From: an uncultured Candidatus Saccharibacteria bacterium
Lineage (GTDB): Bacteria > Patescibacteriota > CALEFQ01 > G965231055
NCBI GenBank assembly: GCA_965231055.1
Contig: OZ246411.1
Span: 48,334 to 112,333, forward strand
Reading direction: 5' to 3'
DNA: 64,000 nt
Part shown: one piece after another, positions 3,101 through 54,228 of the stretch
How positions within the stretch are numbered: the first letter of the stretch is position 1
Layout of the letters: every line of letters starts with the position of its first letter
Position numbers and translations under genes: made by a program
The notes under the pieces: generated by a model
What the model was told of the DNA's origin: nothing
The model's database searches: none
Seen by the model: only the letters and a program-made list of their open reading frames with translations

Positions 3101-3445
3101 CTAGTTTGAGCTAGAAATCATCCTTATCCTAATTTCTAGCATTTTTACTATATGCTCGCATTCGTAAGCGAGTTTTCTGTAAAATGACTTGTCTATAATA
3201 GCGGATTCGTAGAGATTGTCCAGCCATGCGAGAGTTTCATTGGCCTTTCCGAGCGCTCGCTCAAGAAATCTCTGAATATCGTTTTTATTCTGGCTTTTTC
3301 TTGCGGCAAGTAGATAATTGTCCACTGCCTCTGAAGACTCTATCATTTTCTCCCCTATCTCAGACATCACAAATCCTCTTGGCAACTTGTCAGCCAATAA
3401 AACAATCTGGGTGGAAAAACGTCCTGATGTTTCTATGATATCCAT
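3101..3445 (-). CDS. four-helix-bundle protein (23S rRNA-intervening-sequence protein family-like)
   Basis: 114-aa helical protein; start set to MDIIETS to avoid overlap with rpoD. Confidence 0.45.
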   Translation of the reverse strand: MDIIETSGRFSTQIVLLADKLPRGFVMSEIGEKMIESSEAVDNYLLAARKSQNKNDIQRFLERALGKANETLAWLDNLYESAIIDKSFYRKLAYECEHIVKMLEIRIRMISSSN

Positions 3446-3452
3446 GGAAAAT

Positions 3453-4796
3453 TTAATAGTCTCTAAGTTTTTTAAGATCTTCGTCTGCACGTATTTTTTC
3501 AAGTGCCTTCGCCTCTATCTGTCTTATACGCTCTCTCGTCACTCCAAATTCTTGTCCCACTTCCTCAAGAGTGTGTCCTATTCCATCAGTAAGTCCAAAT
3601 CGCATCTCTAGAATTTTTTGTTCTCTTGGGAGCAATCTTCTGAGTACTTTTTCAACATGCTCTTTGAGAAGCTTTCTGGCTGCACTTTGACTTGGAGAAA
3701 GAGTTTTGTCGTCTTCAATAAAATCTCCGAGCGTGCTCTCGCTGTCATCATCATCTCCCACTGAAGTCTGAAGTGAAACTGTTTCTTGATTTATTTTTAT
3801 AATATGTCTAACCTTGTCCACGTCCATTCCCATTTCTGCTGCAATTTCTTCTGGCAAAGGCTCTCTTCCGAGATCCTGAACTAGTCTTCGCGAAATTTGT
3901 GTAAATTTATTTATAGTTTCAACCATGTGCACAGGAATACGAATAGTTCTTGATTGATCAGCTAGCGCTCTTGTGATTGCTTGCCTGATCCACCATGTCG
4001 CATAAGTTGAAAATTTGTATCCCTTGCGATAATCAAATTTATCTACAGCTCTAAACAATCCTATATTTCCCTCTTGAATAAGATCAAGCAGTGTCAGGTC
4101 TCCTTGTCCTACATATTTTTTGGCAATACTTACGACAAGTCTCAAGTTGGCTTCAATCAATCTTTTGCGAGCCGCCTTGTCCCCTCGTTTCATTCTTTTT
4201 GCGAGCATCACTTCTTCTTCTCCTGTCAAAAGATTTACTCTACCTATTTCTCGTAGATACATCTGCACAGAATCTCCAGCAAGTCCGCCTGAAAAATCTT
4301 GACTGCTAAAAGTTTCACTTCCTTCATCTGATTCTTCTTCAATTTTCAATATCTCTGTCTCGTGTTTTTTTGATTCCAAAACTTCCTTCTTGGCTTCGAT
4401 AACAGAAGCATCCATGGATAGCGCTTCTTTACCTTCTACTACGTCTATGCCTTCATTATCAAAATACTCCAAAACTTCTTCAAGTTTTTGGATATTGGTT
4501 TCGGCTTCAGGTATTGCTTGCAAAATTTCGCCCTCAGAAACAAATCCTTGATCCTTGCCCTTGACTATAAGTTCATCAATTGATTTCTTCTGTTCTTCTG
4601 GAGTGATGCTCTGAATTTCTTTTTCTGATTTGGCTGGTGTTTTTACCCGAGAAAGAAATCCTTTTCTTTTCTTCGCATACTTTGCTTTTCTTTTGGCGTT
4701 CTGTTTTCTGGTTTTCTTTCGGGGCTTGCGAACCATTTTTACTCGCCTAGATTTTGCTGGTTTAGCCTTTTTCTTTTTGGAAGTTTTTTTCTTCAC
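3453..4796 (-). CDS. rpoD: RNA polymerase sigma factor RpoD (sigma-70) with lysine-rich N-terminus
   Basis: regions 2-4 motifs [50 protein letters not shown]. Confidence 0.95.
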
Positions 4797-4826: not shown

Positions 4827-6647
4827 CTAACGAAAATCGGCCATTTGCTTTTGAAGTAGCTCCATGAGCTTTGATATTTCCACACTGATTTCTTCAGCTC
4901 TTTGATTATTGCCTTTGGCTTCTACTACTCTGAGTTCGCCCTCTTTATCCTTTAACCATCTTCTTAAATGGTAAATATAAAGCTCACCAAGGCATCTCTT
5001 GATTTCTGGTTCAAACTGATCTTCAGGTATGTTTTCGTTTTCTATGACCAAAACAAGCTCACTGAGCATGTCTGCAAGTTTTTTGTCCTGAATAGCAACC
5101 ACATCCTTGAAGGCACCGAGATCAAATTGTCCTGTCCTATTATAAAATTCTTTTAGGTTTTCGTAAAGCCCTATATAACTCTCCGGCAAAAGCTTGATTT
5201 TCTCTTCTTCTACCGAATTCACGAGTTCAGGAAAAGACAATAAAAGCGCCAAAATTCTATTTTCAAGTTTATTTTTTCTTCCTAGCATTTTATCCCCGCG
5301 TGGAATAGCTATTACAGATTTTTTGGATTCCAATCTTGTGTATTTTGATGAATTTTTGTCTTTGCTAATTGCACCCAAAAGATCTCTCACAATAGATTCT
5401 TCTGTATCTATTTTTTCTGAAAGCGATTTGATGTAATGATCCTGTTCTATCTTGTCAGACATAAAACTCAAAAATTTCAATATTTCAGCAGCAGCTTTTT
5501 TCTTTTGAACGACGTCTTTGAGATTGGTTTTGGCGAGCACGCTGTCTATAATAAAATCTCCTACTGATTTTTTGGCTTTGAGAATTGCGAGCCATCTTTT
5601 TGGACTCTCTTTTATGATATCGGCTGGATCTTTTCCCATATCACTTATGCTTACCACTTTTACATTCATTCCCGCGACAAGAGCGATTTCTATTCCTCTT
5701 CTTGTTGCCTTGTCTCCTGCGATATCCATATCGAAAGCTAGAACCAAATTATTTGTATATCTTTTTACGAGATCTATTTGCTCGGTGGTAAATGCTGTGC
5801 CAGAAACTGATACCGTATTTTTTACGTCAGCCTGATGAGACATGATAACATCCGTATATCCTTCGACGATAATAGCAAAATCATATTTGCGTATATAATT
5901 TTTGGCTTTATCAAGTCCATAAAGCACTGCACTTTTGTTGTATATCGGAGTTGTGGGAGTGTTTACATATTTGGGACCTTCGAATTTGGGATCAGATTTT
6001 ATAAACTCCCTGCCCCCAAACCCCACAGTATCTCCATGAGAATCAAAAATCGGAAACATAATTCTTCCCCTAAACCTATCGTATATTCCTTTTTTATTTT
6101 TTCTGGGTAGCCCTAGCCCCACTTCTATGCAATCGCTTTCGTTGAAACCAGATGCGTTCATTTTTCTTGATAGTTCATCCCATCCGATAGGAGAAAAACC
6201 TATGTGAAACTCTGAAATTGATTTTTCGGTAATGCCCCTTTTGACAAGATAATCAAAAGCTTTTTTTCCTTCCTCTGTTTTGGTTATATTTTCTTCAAAA
6301 AAAGCCATAGCTCTTTGATTCATCACAAAAAGTCTTCTTCTGTGCTCATCTATTTTGAAACTTGTTTTCTTGATTTCTACTCCCGCCTTTGTCGCCAATA
6401 CTCTCATGGCTTCAGGAAAATCTATATTGTCCATTTTCATTACGAAAGTAAAAATATCTCCACCCTCTCCGCAACCAAAACAATGCCAGATTTGTTTTTC
6501 TGGACTCACAACAAGAGAAGGTGTTTTTTCATTATGAAAAGGACACCTAGCTTTGTAATTCACGCCGGCTTTTGAGAGCTGAATATAATCTCTAATAACA
6601 TCTACTATATCCAGTTTTGATTTGATTTCTTCTTTTTGATCTAGCAT
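4827..6647 (-). CDS. dnaG: DNA primase DnaG
   Basis: CHC2 zinc finger CPFHNEKTPSL..CFGCGEGGD; TOPRIM EGYTDV; classical dnaG-rpoD arrangement. Confidence 0.95.
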   Translation of the reverse strand: MLDQKEEIKSKLDIVDVIRDYIQLSKAGVNYKARCPFHNEKTPSLVVSPEKQIWHCFGCGEGGDIFTFVMKMDNIDFPEAMRVLATKAGVEIKKTSFKIDEHRRRLFVMNQRAMAFFEENITKTEEGKKAFDYLVKRGITEKSISEFHIGFSPIGWDELSRKMNASGFNESDCIEVGLGLPRKNKKGIYDRFRGRIMFPIFDSHGDTVGFGGREFIKSDPKFEGPKYVNTPTTPIYNKSAVLYGLDKAKNYIRKYDFAIIVEGYTDVIMSHQADVKNTVSVSGTAFTTEQIDLVKRYTNNLVLAFDMDIAGDKATRRGIEIALVAGMNVKVVSISDMGKDPADIIKESPKRWLAILKAKKSVGDFIIDSVLAKTNLKDVVQKKKAAAEILKFLSFMSDKIEQDHYIKSLSEKIDTEESIVRDLLGAISKDKNSSKYTRLESKKSVIAIPRGDKMLGRKNKLENRILALLLSFPELVNSVEEEKIKLLPESYIGLYENLKEFYNRTGQFDLGAFKDVVAIQDKKLADMLSELVLVIENENIPEDQFEPEIKRCLGELYIYHLRRWLKDKEGELRVVEAKGNNQRAEEISVEISKLMELLQKQMADFR

Positions 6648-11517: not shown

Positions 11518-12513
11518 TTATCTACCGACAACCAATCTACCACAAGCCCCTGATACATCACGTCCAAATCTAAACCTTTCCACGGTATTTATATCTGCGC
11601 GCTCCAAAATTTCTTTAAAAGTCTCGGCTCGATTCTCTGATGAAGGTTTGAAGTTTTCTACCTGATTACACAAAATCAAATTTACTACGTACGGATACTT
11701 CAATTGCTTTAGCAAAACCACGAGTTCTTTGGCGTTTTCTATGCGATCATTTATACCATCAATCAAAACATATTCAATCATAACTTTTCTATGAGTTGCT
11801 TCCATGTAATCCGAAATGGCTTTGAGTATTTCTTTGAGCGAATTCTTTTTGGCAAAAGGAATGAGACTAGATCTAAGTTCATCATTTGGAGCATGCATAG
11901 AAAATGCCAGATTGTATTGGTCTTTTTCCTCGGTAAGCTTCTTTATTCCATCTACAACTCCCACAGTAGAAAAAGAAATCTTGCGCGCACTTATTTCAAA
12001 ATATTTCTGTATAAATTTAGCCGCCAATATCACTTCGTCATAATTTAAAAACGGTTCCCCCATTCCCATGAAAGTAACGTTTGTGACTCTTGCATTGTCT
12101 TTTTTAAGCATCCTTTCAAAAATCAAAACCTGATCCACAATCTCCATATAAGTCAAACTGCGCTTCAAGCCCATGGAACCAGTAGCGCAAAACTTGCATC
12201 CGAGTGCGCACCCCACCTGAGAAGAAACGCACACTGTATTTCTATTATCCTTGTGCCTCATCAAAACCGCTTCAATTTTTAATCCATCATCAAGAGTAAT
12301 CAATACTTTTTTGGTATTTTTATCTGCCGAGTTACTGACTTTGTAATTTATTTCCAATGAAAAATCTTTTTTGAGTTTTTCTCTGAGTTCTTTGGAGAGA
12401 TTTGTCGCCATGTCCCAATTTTCTATCGCCTTGGCATAAATCCACTCAAAAACCTGCCTCTCTCGAAACGCAGGTTCGCCTTTCAATAAATTTTTGAGTT
12501 TTTCTATTTGCAT
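11518..12513 (-). CDS. rlmN: 23S rRNA (adenine2503-C2)-methyltransferase RlmN (radical SAM)
   Basis: CVSSQVGCALGCKFCATG radical-SAM motif; RlmN N-terminal QIEKLK..ERQVFEW. Confidence 0.85.
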   Translation of the reverse strand: MQIEKLKNLLKGEPAFRERQVFEWIYAKAIENWDMATNLSKELREKLKKDFSLEINYKVSNSADKNTKKVLITLDDGLKIEAVLMRHKDNRNTVCVSSQVGCALGCKFCATGSMGLKRSLTYMEIVDQVLIFERMLKKDNARVTNVTFMGMGEPFLNYDEVILAAKFIQKYFEISARKISFSTVGVVDGIKKLTEEKDQYNLAFSMHAPNDELRSSLIPFAKKNSLKEILKAISDYMEATHRKVMIEYVLIDGINDRIENAKELVVLLKQLKYPYVVNLILCNQVENFKPSSENRAETFKEILERADINTVERFRFGRDVSGACGRLVVGR

Positions 12514-50850: not shown

Positions 50851-51843
50851 TTAGTTTTCTACTACTTTTTCATATTCCTTCAAAAACTTTTCTCTAAATT
50901 CTTCTCTTCTATCGTTTTCGTGAAATTTCAAAATCTTGTCGCATACGATCACATCAGTGTTGGGCTTGTCGCTTTTAGTTTTGTGCTCCCTGCTCATATA
51001 CTTTAGCTGCATTTTTTTCACCATTTTTTCGATTAGCCGACCAAAGCGCCCACCCAAAATATTTTCCCATATACTAGCTACCATTTTAGAAAAATTGGTG
51101 TCATCTACTCTTCTCCTGAAAGAAGGACTAAATCCATGAAATCTATAAAACCATCTCCCTATCCACAAATTTGCTTTTTGAAATTTTTTGTAAACCTTGC
51201 CACCTCTTTCATAAATCGGAGCCATAATAGCAATCCAGTTTATAAAATATGGATCATATGGTTTTTTTTGCAGATGTCTAAGATCCAAATATTTATCAGT
51301 CACAAAAAAACTCAAACATAGTTTATTTGATATTTTGAATCTTCTCCACTGTCCCTGAATAGCAAAAAGAAATGTGATAAAAAGTCTAGCCGTCCACATC
51401 CTACCATCCTTTACGATAATAAAAATATCTATATCACTTCTTTCGCTGATTGCATTGATGGGATTTGTATTACATAGCCCAACTAGCTTCACAAAAGGAA
51501 CAAATCTCAATTGTTTAGTCATTTTTACTGCTTTATCCCATCTTTTTATCGCGAGCAAATGCCTATCCCTTCTTGTTTGAATATTGCCTTCTCGATCTTT
51601 GAGAAAATAAAATCCATCCCTAGTTCTAAGTCTCTCTTTGAGCCAATCACTTTCATCAAGTGCCTTGTAAACATCCTCAAGGCTAACTTCAGATTTTCTA
51701 AACTCATCTTTAATCACCAATTCATTTGTGCCCGAGTCTATGCTCTGCAAAAATTTGTATATCTCAAGAACTGTCAGTGGGTATCTGAAAATATCGTAGA
51801 ACACGATGGTTGCCAATATGTCTTTTTCTATGTACGTAGACAT
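50851..51843 (-). CDS. hypothetical protein with minimal nucleotidyltransferase-fold motif
   Basis: VGLCNTNPINAISERSDIDIFII (G-x13-DxD) and later VTDKY acidic residue. Confidence 0.35.
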   Translation of the reverse strand: MSTYIEKDILATIVFYDIFRYPLTVLEIYKFLQSIDSGTNELVIKDEFRKSEVSLEDVYKALDESDWLKERLRTRDGFYFLKDREGNIQTRRDRHLLAIKRWDKAVKMTKQLRFVPFVKLVGLCNTNPINAISERSDIDIFIIVKDGRMWTARLFITFLFAIQGQWRRFKISNKLCLSFFVTDKYLDLRHLQKKPYDPYFINWIAIMAPIYERGGKVYKKFQKANLWIGRWFYRFHGFSPSFRRRVDDTNFSKMVASIWENILGGRFGRLIEKMVKKMQLKYMSREHKTKSDKPNTDVIVCDKILKFHENDRREEFREKFLKEYEKVVEN

Positions 51844-52090: not shown

Positions 52091-52738
52091 ATGTCCATAA
52101 AAAATAGTGAGTCAATGCCGAATAAGCAAGAACAAGAGCCACAAATAGACATCACGCAAAAAACTAAGGAGCTCGAAAAAGCATTAAAATCAAAAAAAAG
52201 CTTCACCCTGATAGAATTAGCATCGATAGCGTCGATACTTCTATGTCTCGGGGGCGTTGTTAAAGAAAGGTTTCCCAAAGTCAGAGGAGAAAACACAAAA
52301 CCAGAAATGTCCACCCCAAGTCAAGAAAAACCTAAACAAAAAATGTGGGAGGAAGATTTTCACACAAACGAACAAAAAAAATCTACTCGTGAAATTAAAT
52401 CAGAGCCGGAACAAAAAAGCGAAGAAGACAAACTTCAAGACGCGATCAAAATGTGCGTAGATGATTTTGAAAAAGGAGCATTCCGCCACAAAACAGAAAG
52501 TCCGGTAAGATGGATGATATTTGATGCAAGACAACCCAAAGAGGGCGAAACTCAAAGCAATTTTGAAATCAATTCGGCAAAAGAACAAATAACTGAAAAA
52601 ATAGACGGAATGATTGATGCAATGCGCACAGAAAAAAATGACGAAGAAGCTGACTACATGGAAGAACTGCGAGACAAGATCTCTGCATGCAATAGCGAGG
52701 AAGAATTAGCAAAACTACAATCCGAGCTTAAACGATAA
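52091..52738 (+). CDS. K/E-rich single-TM protein, hypothetical (possible retron-associated effector)
   Basis: TM FTLIELASIASILLCLGGVV then charged low-complexity tail; ends 70 nt before the retron-like ncRNA. Confidence 0.45.
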   Translation: MSIKNSESMPNKQEQEPQIDITQKTKELEKALKSKKSFTLIELASIASILLCLGGVVKERFPKVRGENTKPEMSTPSQEKPKQKMWEEDFHTNEQKKSTREIKSEPEQKSEEDKLQDAIKMCVDDFEKGAFRHKTESPVRWMIFDARQPKEGETQSNFEINSAKEQITEKIDGMIDAMRTEKNDEEADYMEELRDKISACNSEEELAKLQSELKR

Positions 52739-52807
52739 TCAAACAAATGAAGCAAAGCATTGACAATGCACCAAACAGTGCTATGTTTTTTGTATAAGTC
52801 GGTACAT

Positions 52808-52957
52808 CGGGGACTGGTATTGAAACCGAAAAGGATATCAAAAGATATCTCCGTTTACACAAGTAAGCGGAAGGGAAATCTACAAAGTGGATTTTCCACC
52901 AAAATCAAACTTTTCTATGTCCGACTATGCCAAGTGGGAAAACAAGTCCAGTCCCCG
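52808..52957 (+). ncRNA. retron-like msr/msd non-coding RNA candidate
   Basis: a1 cggggactgg (52808..52817) and a2 ccagtccccg (52948..52957) 10-bp inverted repeat; internal hairpins; 33 nt before the RT start. Confidence 0.45.
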
Positions 52958-52990
52958 CCCCCTTGGTATTAGGACAAAATAGGAGGAATT

Positions 52991-53860
52991 ATGGGTTCTT
53001 TAAAAAATAAATTTGGAAGTGATATCGAAAACCCTATGTTTTATCGCGAGACCATGTTACCCTTTTGCAAAAAGAATCGCACCATCAGTATCCAAAATCA
53101 AGAAATGAGGAAGCTTCAAAAAAGATTTGCAAAATATATTAGGCAAATCAAAAGTTGGAATGAAGAAAAGTCTGTTGTCGTAAATTTGATACTCCATTCA
53201 TATCAAGGAAGATTTTTCTATCTCACAGATATTTGCGATGCCTTTTCATCTGTAAAGCTAGATCGATTTTTGGGAGCTTTTTCAAGGGCGAGCCATAATC
53301 ATTGGAGTGATGCCAAAGAATTTCTGCAAATCTTTTTTTCCGAAAACGGAGAACTAATTACCGGAGGATCAGCATCTCCCGCAATCTTTAGCCTGTACTG
53401 TCACTTATTGCTAGATGTCGAAATCAGAAACGTAATTGAAAATCAACCAATACTGTACACGAGATATGTTGACAACCTAACATTTTCATCACCCAAAAGA
53501 ATTGGAGCTAAGACAAGAAAAGAAATAAGAAGAGCTATGGCAAAAGTTGGGTTTAGACCAAATCATGGTAAATCCAAAGTCCTCGACATAAAAAAGGGAC
53601 CAATAAATATCATGGGACTAAATATGGATGACTCGAGACAGGTATTTTTCCGCAGAGAAATGCTGGCAAAAATTCACGGACTCCTACATTCATACAAGTC
53701 TAGAAAAGATGTCCCAATCGAGGTGTTACTTGGTTATTACGGCATATTCAAAGATCTTTATATAAACCACAGCCACCGCGCAAAAACAACATCACTTTCA
53801 GAAAAAATCAAAGCTCAATTTCAAGAACTATTTTTACAAACACGAGGGGATTATTTTTGA
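52991..53860 (+). CDS. retron-type reverse transcriptase (YXDD box = YVDN)
   Basis: RT motifs KKNRTISIQNQEMRKLQ (1), NLILH (NAxxH), FYLTDICDAF (A), GGSASPAIFSLY (B'), YTRYVDNLTFSS (C), IMGLNM (VTG-like); SD aggagg. Confidence 0.75.
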   Translation: MGSLKNKFGSDIENPMFYRETMLPFCKKNRTISIQNQEMRKLQKRFAKYIRQIKSWNEEKSVVVNLILHSYQGRFFYLTDICDAFSSVKLDRFLGAFSRASHNHWSDAKEFLQIFFSENGELITGGSASPAIFSLYCHLLLDVEIRNVIENQPILYTRYVDNLTFSSPKRIGAKTRKEIRRAMAKVGFRPNHGKSKVLDIKKGPINIMGLNMDDSRQVFFRREMLAKIHGLLHSYKSRKDVPIEVLLGYYGIFKDLYINHSHRAKTTSLSEKIKAQFQELFLQTRGDYF

Positions 53861-53878
53861 TCCCCTTTTTTATTTTTT
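53846..53878 (+). terminator. rho-independent terminator of RT gene
   Basis: ggggattatttttgatcccc + T-run; a second minus-strand terminator follows at 53879..53911. Confidence 0.6.
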
Positions 53879-53925: not shown

Positions 53926-54228
53926 TTATTTAGCTGTGAACCACTTGATGCTGGTGATCAATGCCCATACCCAAGCGATCATCATTAGAGGGATTCCGAT
54001 AATCATTCCAATTATGGTCCAGATCAATACCCATCCTACCAAAGCTAGAACCAACTGGATAACTCCTGGCTTCATTTGCTTGGCAATAATTGTTCCAAGT
54101 CCAGGAAGAACTGCTATGTTGACGATCAAACCGACGATTTTCAAAGTCTGGTTTGGATCTGATGGCTGTGTGGCAGGTCCTGTTGGAGGAGTCTGCTGTG
54201 GAGCCGACTGCTGTGCTTGATTTTCCAT
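53926..54228 (-). CDS. small 2-TM membrane protein with Q/P-rich N-terminus
   Basis: MENQAQQSAPQQTPP + 2-3 TM; resembles the N-terminus of 47702..48061. Confidence 0.45.
   Translation of the reverse strand: MENQAQQSAPQQTPPTGPATQPSDPNQTLKIVGLIVNIAVLPGLGTIIAKQMKPGVIQLVLALVGWVLIWTIIGMIIGIPLMMIAWVWALITSIKWFTAK

What the first reader, a model, noticed from the sequence alone, without database searches (positions are those of the whole stretch)
53437..53472. RT catalytic box reads YVDN instead of YADD
Direct translation of tac acg aga tat gtt gac aac cta gives YTRYVDNL. The second Asp of the YXDD box is an Asn. That Asp coordinates the catalytic metal in characterised RTs. This RT-like protein may therefore be catalytically impaired, or may use unusual chemistry. 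If so, it would be a degenerate or exapted retron-like system rather than a canonical msDNA producer. A sequencing error (G to A) is an alternative.
Basis: seen in the sequence. Interest (0 to 1): 0.6.

Follow-up and report, generated by a model that had tools for sequence, protein, structure and literature searches.

The report
Retron-like reverse transcriptase with natural YVDN box
A small reverse transcriptase from a candidate-phyla-radiation bacterium really does carry Asn in place of the second catalytic Asp; the change is inherited rather than an error, sits in an otherwise well-kept enzyme paired with a conserved structured RNA, and so probably gives a slowed or repurposed enzyme rather than a dead gene.

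Summary
ORF 52991-53860 (+, 289 aa) is a retron-type RT and its motif C reads Y159-V-D-N162.

It is not a sequencing error. An independent Logan assembly is identical over 6.9 kb. The best-scoring relative among 1.84 billion representatives (P0003, 39% identical, two JGI samples) has FVDN with the same GTT GAC AAC codons. The other 156 of 158 family members have DD.

The RT belongs to a Patescibacteria/CPR family that I could not find described. Each member is about 300 aa, is closest in sequence and fold to retron RTs (Ec86, Ec83, Ec78), and is paired on the same strand with a structured ncRNA. That RNA has a covarying two-hairpin core and a 10-16 bp a1/a2 closing duplex. No conserved effector gene is present.

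Both DN loci keep the RNA intact and keep motif A Asp80 and motif C Asp161. They share several other departures near the active site and have the shortest candidate template segments.

Precedents (Ty1 RT D211N; the YVDN RTs of nematode Bel/Pao elements) show that DN can still polymerise, slowly and with a preference for Mn2+.

Best reading: a fixed lineage trait giving a slow, short-product RT. A non-catalytic, exapted RT cannot be excluded.

The parts
52760..52787 (+). Promoter-like site: TTGACA, 16 nt, TG-extended TATGTT
   Evidence: 10 of 12 matches. L002 has TTGACA at the equivalent position, -223 versus -231 from the RT start. Consensus match only; transcription was not shown.
52808..52957 (+). 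Structured ncRNA (candidate msr-msd), from a1 to a2
   Evidence: RNA fold of 52790-52985 gives -68.1 kcal/mol, z = -6.0, with 0 of 200 shuffles as stable. The layout is the same in L002. No Rfam family matches.
52808..52822 (+). a1 arm of the closing inverted repeat (perfect core CGGGGACUGG at 52808-52817)
   Evidence: 10 perfect bp, shuffle p = 0.0. An equivalent a1/a2 duplex of 10-16 bp with a different sequence is present in all 11 loci tested.
52833..52850 (+). Hairpin H1 (GGAUAUC / GAUAUCU)
   Evidence: L002 has a 9-bp hairpin of different sequence at the same place.
52850..52871 (+). Hairpin H2 (UCCGUUUAC-ACAA-GUAAGCGGA), part of the conserved RNA core
   Evidence: Covariance model R1 scores the window at 61.3 bits, E = 9e-12. 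In H2, 8 of 9 pairs show changes on both sides across 16 loci.
52873..52897 (+). Hairpin H3 (GGGAAAUCUAC-AAA-GUGGAUUUUCC), part of the conserved RNA core
   Evidence: The DN RNAs lack the bulged A that the DD RNAs have in this hairpin (by inspection).
52898..52942 (+). Variable segment between the core and a2; candidate template (msd-like) region
   Evidence: Inference from the retron layout. The distance from core to a2 is 47 nt here and 43 nt in L002, against 69-203 nt in nine DD loci.
52943..52957 (+). a2 arm of the closing inverted repeat (perfect core CCAGUCCCCG at 52948-52957)
52981..52986 (+). Shine-Dalgarno AGGAGG, 10 nt before the ATG
   Evidence: The same element lies at -11 in L002.
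52991..53860 (+). Retron-type reverse transcriptase ORF, 289 aa (P0001)
53183..53197 (+). Region X motif N65-L-I-L-H69 (the NAxxH equivalent)
   Evidence: H69 is invariant in alignment A1. The motif is defined in PMC7736814.
53228..53230 (+). Motif A catalytic Asp80 (retained)
   Evidence: D in 149 of 151 sequences and kept in both DN proteins.
53465..53476 (+). Motif C box Y159-V-D161-N162; the Asn codon AAC is at 53474-53476
53570..53572 (+). Lys194, the probable motif D lysine (retained here, Glu in P0003)
   Evidence: K in 149 of 151 sequences. Assigning it to motif D is my inference from the alignment to Ec86 NSKKT.
53609..53617 (+). Region Y triplet I207-M208-G209 (the VTG equivalent)
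   Evidence: G209 is invariant in A1. It aligns to VTG of Ec86.
53844..53867 (+). Terminator-like hairpin plus T-run overlapping the RT stop codon

Best explanation
The Asn is a genuine, inherited feature of a small sub-lineage within a CPR (Patescibacteria) family of retron-like elements. Each element is one transcription unit: promoter, then a ~150-nt structured RNA closed by an a1/a2 duplex, then a ~300-aa RT, then a terminator. No dedicated effector gene is present.

Inferred mechanism: the RT binds the conserved two-hairpin core of its own RNA. The a1/a2 duplex presents a priming site, and the RT copies the short segment between the core and a2 (about 45 nt here) into a small cDNA, as retron RTs do.

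With YVDN the enzyme most likely still polymerises, but slowly and perhaps preferring Mn2+. That can be tolerated because only one short product per complex is needed.

Shown here: the residue is real, it is not an error, the RT core and the RNA are conserved, and the architecture is retron-like. Inferred: cDNA synthesis, its priming, residual activity and the biological role.
For: Real and inherited:
- The independent Logan assembly is identical over 6870 nt.
- P0003, the top hit of an exhaustive search (146.8 bits, 39% identity, two JGI samples), has FVDN with the identical GTT GAC AAC codons.
- The two proteins are sisters in an NJ tree.
- They share 5 deviating columns out of 37 conserved ones. 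Only 1.5% of sequence pairs share 3 or more.
- Their RNA cores are reciprocal nearest neighbours, and their element spacing is nearly identical.

Still under selection:
- The ORF is intact.
- D80, D161, R158, G125, S129, H69 and G209 are kept in both proteins.
- The model is confident, pLDDT 81.6.
- All RNA helices are intact in both loci, with compensatory differences. This includes the a1/a2 duplex, which has a different sequence in each.
- The GC content equals that of the flanks.

Retron-like:
- The best sequence matches in the PDB are Ec86 (110 bits), Ec83, Ec78 and Ec67 RTs.
- The top 18 fold matches are all retron RTs.
- The RNA core is found next to the RT on the same strand in 16 loci. 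94% of cells are paired against 76% in shuffles, and 11 of 13 pairs show double changes.
- An a1/a2 duplex is present in 11 of 11 loci tested.

DN can work:
- Ty1 RT D211N stays active, with kpol down 223-fold and a preference for Mn2+ (PMC2148107).
- Nematode Bel/Pao elements, including intact ones, carry YVDN as a lineage trait (PMC554778, PMC9094657).
- The two DN loci have the shortest core-to-a2 segments, 47 and 43 nt against 69-203 nt. This fits a slow enzyme making a short product.
Against: - Retroviral RTs do not tolerate changes at this Asp, as stated in PMC2148107 and PMC554778.
- P0003 has also lost the near-invariant Lys194 (to Glu), so at least that lineage may be far less active.
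- Both DN proteins are among the most divergent in the family (rank 7 and 12 of 140) and depart at G121 and N134 beside motif B. This could reflect relaxed constraint on catalysis.
- Bootstrap support for the sister pairing is only 94 of 200, and the RNA nearest-neighbour margin is small (0.67 against 0.64). A single old origin is therefore favoured but not proven.
- No cDNA, priming G or activity has been observed.
- No function is known for the family.
Confidence: 0.5

Rival explanations
1. Exapted pseudo-polymerase. The DN sub-lineage has lost DNA synthesis. The RT is kept as a specific RNA-binding partner of its ncRNA, as a scaffold, sensor or regulator, so the fold and the RNA are conserved but catalysis is not.
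For: - The second Asp is replaced in both members.
- P0003 also lost the motif D Lys194 and has Y136C and Y159F.
- Both depart at G121 and N134 next to motif B.
- Both are among the most divergent family members.
- Both have the shortest template-like segments, 43-47 nt.
- Retroviral RTs are inactivated by this change (PMC554778).
Against: - Motif A Asp80 and motif C Asp161, together with R158, G125, S129 and F133, are retained in both proteins after divergence to 39% identity. This is unexpected if the active site were free to drift.
- The a1/a2 duplex is maintained by wholesale compensatory change.
- Ty1 D211N and the Bel/Pao YVDN RTs show that the substitution alone does not abolish activity.
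Confidence: 0.33
2. Decaying gene. A once-active retron-like RT acquired an inactivating D->N mutation and is on its way to becoming a pseudogene in this genome.
For: - 156 of 158 family members have DD.
- In an unrelated RT family, L085 is a lone DN among 120 relatives, which shows that sporadic changes do occur.
- The N-terminal 34 residues of P0001 are divergent and poorly modelled.
Against: - The ORF is intact and of family-typical length, with promoter, SD and terminator in place.
- 31 of 37 conserved columns are kept.
- The same change occurs in a 39%-identical relative with a homologous, intact RNA.
- CPR genomes are small and streamlined (general knowledge), so dead genes would be expected to be lost.
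Confidence: 0.1
3. Sequencing or assembly error (G to A at 53474).
For: A single transition separates AAC from GAC.
Against: - The Logan assembly of SRR10912417 is identical over 6870 nt, and the exact protein occurs on three contigs.
- The same codon is present in P0003 from two other samples.
- Caveat: the Logan run may be the same raw data that the NCBI genome was assembled from.
Confidence: 0.02

Closest known systems
Retron reverse transcriptases with msr-msd ncRNA (e.g. Retron-Eco1/Ec86; solved structures 7v9x, 7v9u)
   Same: - Best sequence and fold matches.
- Compact RT of about 300 aa with no RNase H domain.
- Equivalents of the NAxxH and VTG signature residues (H69, G209).
- The motif C context YTRYxD.LTFS is almost identical to Ec86.
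- A same-strand adjacent structured RNA closed by a1/a2 inverted repeats.
   Different: - YVDN instead of YADD.
- The family lacks the Gln of motif B (LPQG becomes GL[IV][TV]G, column 124).
- It scores far below the curated cut-offs of the named retron families (71 against 235 bits).
- No Rfam msr match.
- No conserved effector gene.
- The hosts are CPR bacteria.
- msDNA has not been demonstrated.
Ty1 reverse transcriptase mutant D211N (PMC2148107)
   Same: Exactly the same substitution, second D of YXDD to N. It retains polymerase activity in vitro.
   Different: It is a laboratory mutant of a eukaryotic LTR-retrotransposon RT. kpol falls 223-fold, the enzyme prefers Mn2+, and transposition is lost in vivo unless second-site suppressors arise. 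The case here is natural and maintained.
Nematode Bel/Pao (Belpaoviridae) elements Cer7-Cer13 and Atlas virus (PMC554778, PMC9094657)
   Same: A natural, lineage-wide YVDN box in otherwise intact RTs.
   Different: These are eukaryotic Gag-Pol-Env LTR elements. They share no homology with this RT beyond the general RT fold, they have no ncRNA partner, and their activity was also never tested biochemically.
Two-component RT plus ncRNA defence systems (DRT2, DRT9, DRT10)
   Same: RT plus a structured ncRNA, with no separate effector gene.
   Different: A different RT clade. NCBIfam Drt2 scores 19 bits against a cut-off of 390. DRT2 ranks below all retron RTs in the fold search. Those systems have no a1/a2-type closing duplex that I know of.

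Membership tests
Retron | The RT belongs to the retron RT lineage by sequence and fold | tested here: met
   PADLOC retron RT models score 60-70 bits. The family profile scores 110 bits, E = 1e-30, against Ec86 RT. The top 18 Foldseek PDB hits are all retron RTs.
Retron | [quoted passage not shown] | tested here: met
   N65-L-I-L-H69. H69 is invariant in A1, and the motif aligns to NATPH of Ec86. Ala is replaced by Leu.
Retron | [quoted passage not shown] | tested here: inconclusive
   P0001 reads I-M-G209 and the family reads (I/V)(N/T)G. G is invariant and aligns to VTG of Ec86, but V and T are not kept in the query.
Retron | Canonical YxDD catalytic box | tested here: not met
   YVDN.
Retron | Adjacent same-strand ncRNA flanked by a1/a2 inverted repeats | tested here: met
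   a1 at 52808-52822 and a2 at 52943-52957. A perfect 10-16 bp duplex of differing sequence is present in 11 of 11 loci, shuffle p <= 0.035 each. The RNA core covaries.
Retron | msDNA made from a branching G through a 2'-5' link | not testable with these tools
   No conserved G could be singled out after a1. This needs an experiment.
Retron | Associated effector gene (tripartite system) | tested here: not met
   No neighbour protein family is shared by more than 3 of 36 loci, and the shared ones are housekeeping genes. TM neighbours are not enriched. In L002 a terminator separates the upstream ORF from the unit.
Retron | Passes the curated cut-off of a named retron RT family or an Rfam msr model | tested here: not met
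   NCBIfam retron_St85_RT scores 71.4 bits against a cut-off of 235. No Rfam hit in 52740-52990.
DRT2/DRT9-type two-component RT-ncRNA systems | The RT belongs to the UG/DRT class 2 lineage | tested here: not met
   Drt2 scores 19.4 bits against a cut-off of 390. The DRT2 structure ranks 19th, behind all retron RTs.
CRISPR-associated RT | Adjacent cas1/cas2 genes or a fusion to Cas1 | tested here: not met
   The neighbours of the window RT are GroES/GroEL, two unknown ORFs and UvrA. Only the unrelated L085 RT sits next to Cas1/Cas2.

The most novel reading that the evidence does not exclude
The CPR elements are an undescribed, effector-less branch of the retron world. Its YVDN sub-lineage is a natural experiment in which the RT-ncRNA complex has been kept for a long time with a crippled or silent polymerase site. 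That would mean the complex has a function that does not depend on efficient DNA synthesis, for example RNA-based sensing or regulation, or a reaction limited to priming or a few nucleotides.
Probability: 0.3. Interest if true: 0.7.

Novelty: new variant of a known kind. Interest (0 to 1): 0.55.

Why it matters
Retron RTs are studied as phage-defence sensors and as genome-editing tools, and the YxDD box is usually treated as indispensable. A naturally maintained YVDN retron-type RT, with its cognate RNA intact, gives a ready-made test of how much polymerase activity such a complex needs. It also tests whether Asn shifts the metal preference, as it does in Ty1.

The wider result may matter more. 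CPR bacteria carry a compact RT-plus-ncRNA family with retron hallmarks but no effector gene and no motif B Gln. None of my literature searches turned up a description of it. Its role in organisms with minimal genomes is unknown.

Tried and rejected
- **Exact RNA islands as a private signature.** I first read the islands CCGTTTA, CGGAAGG and ATTTTCC as an RNA type private to the two DN loci, because they were absent from 33 DD loci. That was too strong. DD relatives L001, L086 and L088 have a homologous core differing by 1-2 nt per island, and the covariance model finds the core in 16 loci. Only the exact islands and the nearest-neighbour relation are specific to the DN pair.\n- **Search for a conserved effector.** Clustering 252 neighbour ORFs found nothing. 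A test for enrichment of TM neighbours found nothing, and its ORF calling was noisy. The cluster look-up gave no accession or organism name.\n- **dN/dS.** Not attempted, because at 39% identity synonymous sites are saturated.

Full report
**1. The observation.** The + strand at 53456-53479 reads tac acg aga tat gtt gac aac cta, which translates to YTRYVDNL. It lies in frame inside ORF 52991-53860, 289 aa. YVDN is 53465-53476 and the Asn codon AAC is 53474-53476, not 53452-53454.

The ORF is a reverse transcriptase. Pfam RVT_1 scores 40.5 bits over residues 26-211. The best PADLOC models are retron RTs of types III-A, II-A and VI at 66-70 bits. The best NCBIfam model is retron_St85_RT at 71 bits, far below its cut-off of 235. 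A profile of the family aligns its YTRYlDDLTFS with YTRYADDLTLS of the solved Ec86 RT. So N162 occupies the position of the second catalytic Asp.

**2. Error or real?** The exact protein occurs on three contigs, and the Logan assembly of run SRR10912417 is identical to the window over 6870 nt.

An exhaustive HMMER search of 1.84 billion representatives returned 1500 relatives, none above 41% identity. In an alignment of the query with the best 150, the column is D in 149 sequences and N in 2: the query and P0003.

P0003 is the top-scoring relative at 146.8 bits and 39% identity. It comes from two JGI metagenomes and reads YTRFVDNLTFSS with the same GTT GAC AAC codons. Seven further relatives of P0003 are all DD. 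A sequencing error is therefore very unlikely.

**3. One origin or two?** Four lines of evidence point to a single old origin:
- A neighbour-joining tree of 64 full-length members makes P0001 and P0003 sisters, but with only 94 of 200 bootstraps.
- Of 37 columns conserved at 80% or more, P0001 departs at 6 and P0003 at 10, and 5 of these columns are shared: P35 to Q in both, L93, G121, N134, and D162 to N in both. Only 169 of 11,325 sequence pairs share 3 or more.
- Their RNA cores are reciprocal nearest neighbours, by a small margin of 0.67 against 0.64 and 0.62.
- The positions of promoter, a1, H1, H2, H3, a2 and SD relative to the start codon agree within about 10 nt.

I consider a single old origin more likely than not, but it is unproven. 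Under either scenario the change is not a recent accident in this genome.

**4. What the gene belongs to.** Relatives found in reference genomes are almost all Patescibacteria/CPR: Paceibacterota, Parcubacteria, Saccharibacteria, Zambryskibacteria, Kerfeldbacteria and others. The window itself has 33-40% GC and carries GroEL/GroES and UvrA next to the RT. That its source is also a CPR bacterium is an inference.

The AlphaFold model is confident (pLDDT 81.6, pTM 0.77) except for residues 1-34. Its 18 best PDB matches are all retron RTs: Eco7/Ec78, Ec83, Ec86, Eco2 and Eco8. DRT2, G2L4 and group II intron RTs come after them.

The two signature residues that Mestre et al. use for retron RTs are H of NAxxH and G of VTG (PMC7736814). 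Both are present and invariant, as H69 and G209.

**5. The partner RNA.** The 250-nt gap upstream of the RT holds a promoter-like TTGACA-16-TATGTT at 52760-52787. It also holds a very stable fold, z = -6.0. A closing duplex, a1 at 52808-52822 and a2 at 52943-52957, encloses three abutting hairpins: H1 52833-52850, H2 52850-52871 and H3 52873-52897. A 45-nt variable segment lies between H3 and a2.

Upstream regions are structured across the whole family. The median z is -3.0 against -0.8 for controls inside the gene, and 17 of 34 loci fall below -3 against 1 of 34 controls (Wilcoxon p = 4e-5).

A covariance model of the H2-H3 core, built from five loci, finds the core next to the RT and on its strand in 16 loci at E <= 0.01. 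On that alignment:
- 94% of cells are paired, against 76% in shuffles (0 of 500 shuffles reach it) and 60% or less when partners are slid.
- 11 of 13 pairs show changes on both sides.
- Caveat: the alignment was fitted to the model.

In all 11 loci where the core lies upstream, a perfect 10-16 bp long-range duplex of locus-specific sequence brackets the RNA. It ends 25-88 nt before the RT start. This is the a1/a2 arrangement of retron msr-msd RNAs. No Rfam family matches.

**6. No effector.** Clustering 252 ORFs from within 3 kb of the RT in 36 loci found no family shared by more than three loci. Membrane proteins are not enriched next to the RT. In L002 a terminator separates the upstream ORF from the RNA promoter. 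The unit therefore looks two-component: RNA plus RT. That matches retrons in architecture and enzyme, and matches DRT2/DRT9-type systems in lacking a separate effector.

**7. State of the DN enzymes.** Both keep motif A D80, motif C D161, R158, G125, S129, F133, H69 and G209. Both RNAs keep every helix, with compensatory differences. This includes the a1/a2 duplex, which has a different sequence in each. These points argue for continued selection on the complex and, less strongly, on the active site.

Other observations point the opposite way:
- Both proteins are among the most divergent in the family (rank 7 and 12 of 140).
- Both depart at G121 and N134 beside motif B.
- P0003 has also replaced the near-invariant Lys194 by Glu. 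I infer Lys194 to be the motif D lysine, because it aligns to the NSKKT segment of Ec86.
- The candidate template segment is shortest in the two DN loci, 47 and 43 nt against 69-203 nt in nine DD loci. These are the two lowest of 11 values, so the pattern is suggestive only.

**8. What Asn does, from the literature.** In Ty1 RT, changing the second D of YXDD to N leaves polymerase activity in vitro. kpol falls 223-fold, dNTP binding is unchanged, and Mn2+ is preferred. D211E, or changing either of the other two Asp, abolishes activity. Retroviral RTs are inactivated by changes at these Asp (PMC2148107).

Nematode Bel/Pao elements (Cer7-Cer13, Atlas virus) carry YVDN as a lineage trait, including intact elements (PMC554778, PMC9094657).

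I found no report of YVDN in a retron-type or other bacterial RT. I also found no paper on retrons in Patescibacteria. These searches cover open-access literature only.

**9. Verdict.** It is a fixed lineage trait in an otherwise conserved, retron-like RT-ncRNA unit of CPR bacteria. It is neither an error nor a decaying gene.

| Reading | Confidence |
|---|---|
| Slowed, possibly Mn2+-preferring polymerase making a short cDNA | about 0.5 |
| Non-catalytic, exapted RT | about 0.33 |
| Decaying gene | about 0.1 |
| Sequencing or assembly error | about 0.02 |

The finding is a new variant of a known kind. The surrounding CPR family, with no effector and no motif B Gln, is at least as interesting as the Asn itself.

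Noticed in passing
L085:4595-5644 (-), with Cas6b at 5641-6402, Cas1 at 3621-4625 and Cas2 at 3316-3657: An unrelated 349-aa retron-like RT in a Cas6b-RT-Cas1-Cas2 adaptation module also reads YTRYVDNLTFSS. Among its 120 best relatives 115 are DD, it is the only DN, and one (P0266) reads FADK. So the second Asp is replaced sporadically in bacterial RT families, in roughly 1% of representatives.
   Followed up: partly
window 53354-53380 (motif B, residues 122-130); alignments A1 and all.aln, column of residue 124: The whole CPR family lacks the Gln of the retron and retroviral LPQG motif B. The position is T in 73, V in 33, I in 13 and Q in only 13 of 151 sequences. Its motif A, D-x-x-x-A-Y/F-x-S-V, resembles retroviral DVGDAYFSV more than retron DLEDFFPS (by inspection; the HIV sequence is from memory).
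   Followed up: partly
L087:4070-4123, L009:4990-5043, L026:3189-3242, L015:1164-1217: In four DD loci the conserved RNA core lies just downstream of the RT stop codon instead of upstream, still on the RT strand. The gene order of RNA and RT is therefore not fixed in this family.
   Followed up: no
L002:4788-5693 (P0003), residue E at the position of window K194: The second DN protein has Glu in place of the near-invariant Lys (149 of 151), the probable motif D lysine. It also has Y136C and Y159F. Its active site is more altered than that of the window protein.
   Followed up: partly
window 52898-52942 and L002 about 4709-4751: The segment between the RNA core and a2 is 47 and 43 nt in the two DN loci and 69-203 nt in nine DD loci. 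These are the shortest candidate templates in the set.
   Followed up: partly
window 52091-52738 (+): The 215-aa ORF immediately upstream of the RNA promoter has a pilin-like hydrophobic segment, KKSFTLIELASIASILLCLGGVV, about 35 residues from its N-terminus and a long Glu/Lys-rich tail. It has no Pfam match and is unrelated to the ORF at the same place in L002. It is probably not part of the RT unit.
   Followed up: partly
window 53844-53867 (+) and 53911-53887 (-): Two convergent terminator-like hairpins separate the RT from a 100-aa three-TM ORF on the opposite strand at 53926-54228. They account for the weak Rfam RsaE and Phe-leader hits in this interval.
   Followed up: yes
window 52795-52803 and 52919-52926: AUAAGUCGG in the 5' leader can pair with CCGACUAU inside the variable segment, giving 8 bp with one bulge (by inspection). 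This would be an alternative to the minimum-free-energy fold. Its significance is unknown.
   Followed up: no
window 12356-12401 (-): A weak match to the RNA core model, 20.8 bits and E = 0.055, far from any RT. It is probably chance.
   Followed up: no
window 50851-51843 (-): A 330-aa ORF between GroES and the pilin-like ORF has no Pfam match at E <= 0.01.
   Followed up: no
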